Positions 16,801 to 17,520 of a DNA stretch of 64,000 nt are shown in pieces. Each line of letters opens with the position of its first letter. The first letter of the stretch is position 1. A program made the position numbers. Location: assembly GCF_017348835.2 (NCBI RefSeq), contig NZ_CP071375.1; one strand, 5' to 3'. This DNA is from Escherichia coli. Lineage in GTDB: Bacteria > Pseudomonadota > Gammaproteobacteria > Enterobacterales > Enterobacteriaceae.

Positions 16801-17520
16801 AGCAGTTGCAGCGCGTGCAGGGAGCAACCAAAGCAAAAAAGAGTGAACCGGCAGCCGCTACCCGCGCGCGGCCGGTGAATAACGCTGCGCTGGAAAGACT
16901 GGCTTCGGTCACCGATCGCGTTCAGGCGCGTCCGGTGCCATCGGCGCTGGAAAAAGCGCCAGCCAAAAAAGAAGCGTATCGCTGGAAGGCGACCACTCCG
17001 GTGATGCAGCAAAAAGAAGTGGTCGCCACACCGAAGGCGCTGAAAAAAGCGCTGGAACATGAAAAAACGCCGGAACTGGCGGCGAAGCTGGCGGCAGAAG
17101 CCATTGAGCGCGACGCGTGGGCGGCTCAGGTGAGTCAACTTTCGCTACCAAAACTGGTCGAACAGGTGGCGTTAAATGCCTGGAAAGAGGAGAGTGATAA
17201 CGCAGTATGTTTGCATTTGCGCTCCTCTCAGCGGCATTTGAACAACCGCGGTGCACAGCAAAAACTGGCTGAAGCGTTGAGCATGTTAAAAGGTTCAACG
17301 GTTGAACTGACTATCGTTGAAGATGATAATCCCGCGGTGCGTACGCCGCTGGAGTGGCGTCAGGCGATATACGAAGAAAAACTTGCGCAGGCGCGCGAGT
17401 CCATTATTGCGGATAATAATATTCAGACCCTGCGTCGGTTTTTCGATGCGGAGCTGGATGAAGAAAGTATCCGCCCCATTTGATCGTAAGCACAGCTTAC
17501 GTTCGTCATCCTTAACGTGA

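What the first reader, a model, noticed from the sequence alone, without database searches (positions are those of the whole stretch)
16820..16880. dnaX programmed -1 frameshift signal is intact (tau/gamma production)
The slippery heptamer A AAA AAG (16835-16841), the -1-frame GAG-TGA and the downstream GC-rich stem-loop are all present. A naive annotation shows only the 643-aa tau ORF; the gamma subunit (about 431 aa, ending at 16846) is a second product from the same gene.
Basis: established knowledge. Interest (0 to 1): 0.3.

Follow-up and report, generated by a model that had tools for sequence, protein, structure and literature searches.

The report
Textbook E. coli dnaX frameshift signal
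This is the well-known signal inside the E. coli dnaX gene that makes about half of the ribosomes slip back one base and stop, giving the short gamma subunit as well as the full-length tau subunit of DNA polymerase III; it is intact here, base-for-base the same as in the reference strain, and already annotated in public genomes.

Summary
The window is E. coli: it differs from strain PE164 by 1 base in 64 kb. The dnaX ORF (15552-17483, 643 aa) carries all parts of the classical -1 frameshift cassette:
- SD-like AGGGAG at 16819-16824, followed by a 10-nt spacer.
- A_AAA_AAG at 16835-16841, in the X_XXY_YYZ phase (Lys429-Lys430).
- In the -1 frame, GAG then TGA at 16841-16846.
- An 11-bp stem-loop at 16847-16876.

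The 81 nt around the site are 100% identical to K-12 MG1655. The predicted gamma product is 431 aa ending KAKKE, the same geometry as the K-12 joined gamma CDS. Rfam RF00382 (DnaX frameshifting element) matches over its full length at 96.8 bits against a threshold of 35.

The 65-nt element is at least 99% identical in 5372 of 5423 complete E. coli genomes, and RefSeq already labels it. Across 63 distinct Enterobacterales cassettes the stem keeps pairing, with compensatory changes.

The heptamer alone and the fold energy alone are not statistically remarkable. The composite signal and its identity to the characterised element carry the case. Production of gamma in this strain is inferred, not measured. 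Interest is low.

The parts
15552..17483 (+). dnaX zero-frame ORF encoding tau (643 aa)
   Evidence: ORF list. Pfam domains in order: DNA_pol3_delta2, ATPase lid, gamma3 (domain III), tau_4 (417-498), tau_5 (500-640). 100% identical to dnaX of E. coli PE164; 25 nt and 3 aa differences from K-12.
15552..16846 (+). Coding span of gamma (431 aa): codons 1-430 in frame 0, a -1 slip on the heptamer with G16841 read twice, then Glu and TGA
   Evidence: Script translation gives 431 aa ending RVQGATKAKKE*. The span is 1295 nt, as in the K-12 joined CDS YP_009518751.1.
16816..16880 (+). Full match to Rfam RF00382, the DnaX ribosomal frameshifting element
   Evidence: 96.8 bits against a gathering score of 35; E = 3.3e-21; model positions 1-65 of 65. 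At least 99% identical in 5372 of 5423 E. coli genomes.
16819..16824 (+). Internal Shine-Dalgarno-like stimulator AGGGAG, 10 nt upstream of the heptamer
   Evidence: Sequence. The composite pattern is unique in the window, with 0.05 expected. Invariance across the Enterobacterales set says nothing, because the scan pattern required it. Role as the 5' stimulator comes from the literature.
16835..16841 (+). Slippery heptamer A_AAA_AAG (Lys429, Lys430 in frame 0)
   Evidence: Sequence and phase check.
16841..16846 (+). -1 frame codons GAG (Glu431 of gamma) and TGA stop
   Evidence: Script.
16847..16876 (+). 3' stimulatory stem-loop of 11 bp. 5' arm 16847-16858, loop UACCC 16859-16863, 3' arm 16864-16876. 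A16853 and G16870 are apposed and C16867 is bulged. The first pair lies 5 nt after the heptamer.
   Evidence: ViennaRNA MFE structure is the same as the Rfam consensus structure. Across 63 distinct Enterobacterales cassettes 87% of cells pair, against 29-53% when partners are slid. Compensatory A-U to G-C at 16847/16876 in 19 sequences, and G-C to A-U at the columns of 16851/16872 in one. It matches the published description of 11 bp with a bulged C and an A:G apposition.

Best explanation
This is the canonical E. coli dnaX programmed -1 ribosomal frameshift cassette, unaltered.

Ribosomes translating dnaX place the two Lys codons AAA-AAG (16836-16841) in the P and A sites. At the same time the downstream hairpin (16847-16876) sits at the mRNA entry channel and resists unwinding, and the upstream AGGGAG (16819-16824) pairs with the 3' end of 16S rRNA. 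[quoted passage not shown] In a large fraction of ribosomes (about 50% in vivo, up to about 80% in vitro, according to the literature) the two tRNA-Lys re-pair one base back on A-AAA-AA. Those ribosomes then read GAG and stop at TGA (16844-16846), releasing gamma (431 aa, domains I-III plus the first residues of domain IV). Ribosomes that stay in frame make tau (643 aa), which adds the DnaB-binding and Pol III alpha-binding domains.

Shown here: the presence, phase, spacing and structure of all signals, their identity to the characterised cassette, their conservation and their covariation. Inferred from the literature, not measured here: the slip itself, its efficiency, and the role of the single tRNA-Lys.
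For: - The 81-nt cassette is identical to K-12, and gamma has the same length and C-terminus as the K-12 gamma CDS.
- Rfam RF00382 matches over its full length at 96.8 bits, E = 3e-21.
- The MFE fold is identical to the Rfam structure.
- The composite SD-spacer-heptamer signal is unique in the window, with 0.05 expected.
- The shift site lies after residue 430, just inside Pfam tau domain IV (417-498) and after domain III (232-358).
- The 65-nt element is at least 99% identical in 5372 of 5423 E. coli genomes. Only 1811 of 5424 reach that level for the surrounding 501 nt. The 42-nt core is at least 99% identical in 5385 of 5399.
- The stem shows covariation across Enterobacterales.
- RefSeq annotates the identical sequence as 'DnaX frameshifting element'.
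- Mechanism and efficiencies come from PMC5009743, PMC6771820 and PMC5389563. In the last, mutating the heptamer leaves 2% frameshifting, deleting the hairpin 20%, and mutating the SD 50%.
Against: - Nothing in the sequence argues against it.
- The fold energy alone is not significant against shuffles (z = -1.67), because the region is GC-rich.
- The heptamer alone is not rarer than chance.
- Zero differences from K-12 within 81 nt is not significant on its own, given 25 differences in 1932 nt (about 1 expected).
- The covariation rests on few independent events, and the stem also encodes protein in frame 0.
- No expression data were available for this strain.
Confidence: 0.97

Rival explanations
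1. Gamma is produced by transcriptional slippage of RNA polymerase on the A run, as in Thermus thermophilus dnaX, and not by ribosomal slippage.
For: The site contains a homopolymeric A run, and dnaX of T. thermophilus makes gamma this way (PMC5009743).
Against: The run here is only six A's (16835-16840). The review describes efficient bacterial transcriptional slippage on runs of nine A or T. The SD-like element and the hairpin, both conserved and covarying, have no role in that model. In vitro translation from defined mRNA reproduces the shift.
Confidence: 0.01
2. The motif is a chance look-alike or a decayed remnant, and only tau is made; any gamma-sized protein would come from proteolysis of tau, as in Caulobacter.
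For: AAAAAAG is common in the window (15 copies). An SD-N10-heptamer-GAGTGA look-alike exists in an unrelated gene of Collinsella. Caulobacter makes gamma by proteolysis.
Against: The cassette is 100% identical to the experimentally characterised one, scores 96.8 bits on the Rfam model, is nearly invariant in more than 5000 genomes and shows stem covariation. It therefore cannot be decayed relative to the functional reference.
Confidence: 0.01

Closest known systems
E. coli K-12 dnaX -1 programmed frameshift cassette (Rfam RF00382; tau NP_415003.1 and gamma YP_009518751.1)
   Same: Everything tested: the 81 nt around the site are identical; the SD-like hexamer, 10-nt spacer, heptamer, phase, -1 stop and 11-bp stem-loop with an A:G apposition and a bulged C are the same; gamma has the same 431-aa length and KAKKE C-terminus.
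   Different: Only elsewhere in the gene. There are 25 nucleotide differences and 3 amino-acid differences in tau (T271 vs A, P387 vs T, A522 vs P; window residue first), of which two fall in gamma. None touches the signal.
dnaX cassettes of other Enterobacterales (Citrobacter, Enterobacter, Pantoea, Serratia, Erwinia, Mixta and others)
   Same: The lower stem CCGGC/GCCGG is shared. AGGGAG, the 10-nt spacer, A_AAA_AAG and GAG-TGA are shared too, but the scan pattern selected for them.
   Different: The upper stem and loop differ in register and length (a 4-bp upper stem with a 7-8 nt loop in the Enterobacter type; a shorter hairpin in the Pantoea type). The closing pair is G-C instead of A-U in 19 sequences.
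Thermus thermophilus dnaX (transcriptional slippage) and Caulobacter dnaX (proteolysis of tau)
   Same: Same outcome: a short gamma and a long tau from one gene, in roughly a 1:1 ratio (PMC5009743).
   Different: Different mechanism: no ribosomal slip. Here the A run is too short for the Thermus route, and the ribosomal stimulators are present.
IS3-family / IS911 -1 frameshifting and prfB +1 frameshifting
   Same: Use of an internal SD-like sequence as a 5' stimulator, and in many IS elements the same A_AAA_AAG heptamer (PMC5009743).
   Different: In IS elements the shift produces a fusion transposase and the 3' structures are more elaborate. prfB shifts +1 with a much shorter SD spacing. Neither truncates the protein one codon after the shift.

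Membership tests
E. coli-type dnaX -1 PRF cassette (Rfam RF00382) | Lies inside a dnaX (clamp-loader gamma/tau) gene, after domain III | tested here: met
   Pfam places gamma3 at residues 232-358, tau_4 at 417-498 and tau_5 at 500-640; the shift follows residue 430. RefSeq names the gene dnaX.
E. coli-type dnaX -1 PRF cassette (Rfam RF00382) | Slippery heptamer A_AAA_AAG in X_XXY_YYZ phase | tested here: met
   16835-16841; the first A is the third base of codon 428, AAA is codon 429 and AAG is codon 430.
E. coli-type dnaX -1 PRF cassette (Rfam RF00382) | SD-like AGGGAG about 10 nt 5' of the heptamer | tested here: met
   16819-16824, with a 10-nt spacer at 16825-16834.
E. coli-type dnaX -1 PRF cassette (Rfam RF00382) | 11-bp stem-loop 5-6 nt 3' of the heptamer | tested here: met
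   16847-16876. The MFE structure equals the Rfam consensus structure. Covariation and 87% of cells paired across 63 sequences. Fold energy alone is not significant (z = -1.67).
E. coli-type dnaX -1 PRF cassette (Rfam RF00382) | Stop codon one codon into the -1 frame, so that gamma is a truncated tau plus one Glu | tested here: met
   GAG then TGA at 16841-16846; gamma is 431 aa.
E. coli-type dnaX -1 PRF cassette (Rfam RF00382) | Covariance-model score above the curated gathering score | tested here: met
   96.8 bits against 35, over the full length.
E. coli-type dnaX -1 PRF cassette (Rfam RF00382) | Host decodes AAA and AAG with a single tRNA-Lys (anticodon mnm5s2UUU), which makes AAG shift-prone | not testable with these tools
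   The window has no tRNA genes. The property is stated for E. coli in PMC5009743, and the window is E. coli.
E. coli-type dnaX -1 PRF cassette (Rfam RF00382) | Gamma is actually produced at roughly 50% of dnaX translation | not testable with these tools
   This needs protein or ribosome-profiling data. It is inferred from identity to the characterised cassette.

The most novel reading that the evidence does not exclude
The most novel reading not excluded is that the tau:gamma ratio set by this cassette is not fixed. It might respond to physiology, for example through the slow one-tRNA 'hungry' route under Lys-tRNA limitation described in vitro, or through ribosome collisions. Strain-specific context could also matter: the 25 substitutions elsewhere in dnaX, including P387 and T271 in gamma, might shift that ratio. 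Nothing in the sequence points to this, because the signal is identical to K-12.
Probability: 0.03. Interest if true: 0.3.

Novelty: already known. Interest (0 to 1): 0.05.

Why it matters
For annotation, it matters only that dnaX yields two products, and a plain ORF call misses the 431-aa gamma subunit of the clamp loader. According to the review read here (PMC5009743), gamma is part of the Pol III holoenzyme and contributes to UV resistance and to Pol IV-dependent mutagenesis. The cassette is also one of the main model systems for -1 frameshifting. All of this was established from 1990 onward, and current RefSeq annotation already flags the element, so confirming that it is intact in one more E. 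coli genome adds no new biology.

Tried and rejected
1. Heptamer count as evidence. 15 copies against 8.65 expected is not informative on its own. Of the 15, in-phase copies inside genes are those in dnaX, ybaQ and the IS4 transposase, and only dnaX has AGGGAG at -10.
2. Fold energy against shuffles. z = -1.67, which is not convincing for a GC-rich stretch. I relied on the covariance model and on covariation instead.
3. Zero differences from K-12 in the cassette as a sign of selection. About 1 difference would be expected in 81 nt at the gene-wide rate, so the pairwise comparison is not significant. The population counts are the better measure.
4. An alternative upper-stem register (columns 41-52 and 42-51). 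It fits the Enterobacter and Pantoea types but not the E. coli type, so the family has a conserved lower stem and a variable upper stem.
5. The Collinsella hits of the cross-species scan. I tested them for dnaX homology by tblastn and found none. They lie at the 5' end of a sigma-70-like gene, so they are look-alikes and not members.
6. A 1-nt deletion in the hairpin loop of strain ET210. RefSeq marks that dnaX as 'frameshifted'. Because tau is essential, this is most likely an assembly error in a C homopolymer and not a natural loss. I did not resolve it.
7. Transcriptional slippage and proteolysis as routes to gamma. Both rejected, for the reasons given under rival explanations.

Full report
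**What is there.** The window is Escherichia coli chromosome. It is collinear with strain PE164 (NZ_CP114128.1, 3659492-3723491, reverse complement), with one mismatch in 64,000 bases. The region of the finding is the apt-dnaX-ybaB-recR-htpG cluster. dnaX is the 643-aa ORF at 15552-17483 on the + strand. Its Pfam domains run in the order expected for tau: delta2/AAA, ATPase lid, domain III (residues 232-358), domain IV (417-498) and domain V (500-640).

**Checking the observation.**
- The sequence at 16816-16880 reads UGCAGGGAGCAACCAAAGCAAAAAAGAGUGAACCGGCAGCCGCUACCCGCGCGCGGCCGGUGAAU.
- AAAAAAG is at 16835-16841.
- Counting from the start codon, AAA at 16836 is codon 429 and AAG is codon 430, so the heptamer is in the X_XXY_YYZ phase needed for tandem -1 slippage.
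- After a -1 slip the next codons are GAG (16841-16843) and TGA (16844-16846). The product is 431 aa and ends RVQGATKAKKE.
- The coding span 15552-16846 is 1295 nt, exactly the length of the joined gamma CDS YP_009518751.1 in K-12 MG1655.

**The stem-loop.** ViennaRNA folds 16842-16885 into one dominant hairpin (-19.7 kcal/mol, 56% of the ensemble). Its pairs are those of the Rfam DnaX consensus:
- 16847-16852 pair with 16871-16876.
- A16853 is apposed to G16870.
- 16854-16855 pair with 16868-16869.
- C16867 is bulged.
- 16856-16858 pair with 16864-16866.
- The loop is UACCC (16859-16863).

This is the published 11-bp stem with a bulged C and an A:G apposition (PMC5009743).

**Is it more than chance?** Single elements are not.
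- The heptamer occurs 15 times in the window against 8.65 expected.
- The hairpin energy has z = -1.67 against dinucleotide shuffles, because the region is GC-rich.

The combination is.
- AGGGAG-N10-AAAAAAG occurs once against 0.05 expected, even with one mismatch allowed.
- The Rfam covariance model RF00382 matches over all 65 positions at 96.8 bits (gathering score 35, E = 3e-21).
- Of the 15 heptamers, in-phase copies inside annotated genes are those in dnaX, ybaQ and the IS4 transposase, and only dnaX has the upstream hexamer.
- The two other AAAAAAG copies inside dnaX are out of phase.

**Comparison with the characterised element.** Over 16810-16890 the window is identical to K-12 MG1655 and to PE164. 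Elsewhere dnaX differs from K-12 at 25 nucleotides and 3 residues. About one difference would be expected in 81 nt, so that pairwise identity is weak evidence of constraint.

The population data are stronger:
- The 65-nt element is at least 99% identical in 5372 of 5423 complete E. coli genomes.
- The 42-nt core, from the heptamer to the end of the stem, is at least 99% identical in 5385 of 5399.
- The surrounding 501 nt reach that level in only 1811 of 5424.

RefSeq annotates the same bases as 'DnaX frameshifting element'.

**Relatives in other species.** I scanned one genome per species for AGGGAG-N10-AAAAAAGAGTGA, leaving the stem unconstrained. In 75 full-length copies the motif is followed by the dnaX-type stem start, and tblastn with the window's tau places the Enterobacterales copies in or next to a dnaX match. 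They give 63 distinct cassettes, including the window.
- On the E. coli structure, 87% of cells pair, against 29-53% when partners are slid by 1-3 columns.
- The closing pair is A-U in 42 sequences and G-C in 19.
- One Mixta sequence has G-C changed to A-U in the lower stem.
- The upper stem shows further double changes.
- The lower stem is common to all. The upper stem and loop come in at least two registers.
- Caveats: the compensatory changes come from few lineages, the scan pattern fixed the SD and the heptamer, and the stem also encodes tau residues.

**Mechanism.** This part comes from the literature, not from tests here.
- The heptamer is essential. [quoted passage not shown] The SD-like sequence pairs with 16S rRNA and promotes repeated translocation attempts. 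The two tRNA-Lys re-pair in the -1 frame (PMC5389563; PMC6771820).
- Reported efficiencies are about 50% in vivo and up to about 80% in vitro.
- In an in vitro construct, frameshifting fell to 2% when the heptamer was mutated, 20% without the hairpin and 50% without the SD.
- E. coli has a single tRNA-Lys for AAA and AAG, which makes AAG shift-prone. This cannot be checked in the window, which has no tRNA genes.
- Gamma lacks the DnaB-binding and alpha-binding domains of tau. It is reported to be part of the holoenzyme, with roles in UV resistance and Pol IV mutagenesis.

**Rivals.**
- Transcriptional slippage, as in Thermus, is unlikely. The A run is six bases long and the documented cases use nine, and that model leaves the conserved SD and hairpin without a role.
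- A chance or decayed motif is excluded by identity to the functional reference.
- Proteolysis, as in Caulobacter, is not needed to explain gamma in E. coli.

**Verdict.** The feature is the textbook dnaX frameshift cassette, unchanged, and already annotated in public records. Novelty: already known. Interest is low. What remains inferred is only that this particular strain makes gamma, which follows from sequence identity to the characterised element.

Noticed in passing
L036 8474-9835 (+), motif at 8478-8505; also about 42 other Collinsella loci (e.g. L003, L004, L013, L035): The pattern AGGGAG-N10-A_AAA_AAG-GAG-TGA, in the slippery phase (CCA AAA AAG), also occurs at codons 2-11 of a 453-aa sigma-70-family (primary sigma factor-like) ORF in many Collinsella genomes. 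It may overlap that gene's own ribosome-binding site and an alternative GTG start. No nearby stem-loop is evident, and the copies are nearly identical, so conservation says nothing. It is probably a coincidence multiplied by many closely related 'species'. It shows that the linear motif alone does not define a dnaX-type element.
   Followed up: partly
L053 (Candidatus Pantoea persica), cassette row in alignment A1: This dnaX keeps AGGGAG, the spacer, the heptamer and GAGTGA, but the 3' stem-loop is truncated by a deletion (GCCGGCAGCGTCGGC...), leaving at most a 4-bp hairpin. It is a possible natural case of a weakened stimulator.
   Followed up: no
L125 1501-1541 (E. coli ET210, NZ_CP100987.1): A one-base deletion in the CCC of the hairpin loop (UACCC to UACC) makes RefSeq call dnaX 'frameshifted'. 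Because tau is essential, this is most likely a homopolymer assembly error.
   Followed up: partly
L066 3024-3051 (record titled Chryseobacterium sp. 18061): This record carries an Enterobacteriaceae-type dnaX cassette almost identical to that of the Citrobacter sp. 18056 record (L063). The contig is probably contaminated or mislabelled.
   Followed up: no
window 37462-64000: A type I secretion and giant adhesin locus. It contains a TolC-family gene (37462-38817) and the BapA-related adhesin siiEA (38920-56322), which is interrupted by an IS4 element (transposase 56403-57731). The rest of the adhesin follows as a separate fragment (57747-61136), then a T1SS ABC permease/ATPase (61140-63302) and HlyD (from 63299). 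The window's single mismatch to PE164 (56469) lies in the IS4 transposase.
   Followed up: no
window 31901-31907 (ybaQ) and 57188-57194 (IS4 transposase): Two further A_AAA_AAG heptamers are in the slippery phase inside genes, one three codons before the ybaQ stop and one in the IS4 transposase. Neither has AGGGAG 10 nt upstream. Downstream structure was not examined.
   Followed up: partly
window 30561-30644; 24803-24881; 31942-32019: Other Rfam matches above threshold are the sRNA sroB (30561-30644) and two naRNA4 (REP-derived) elements, the second of which matches on both strands.
   Followed up: no
E. coli genome collection: Two of the roughly 5400 matches to the dnaX region lie on records typed as plasmids. 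They are probably mis-typed replicons or chromosomal fragments.
   Followed up: no
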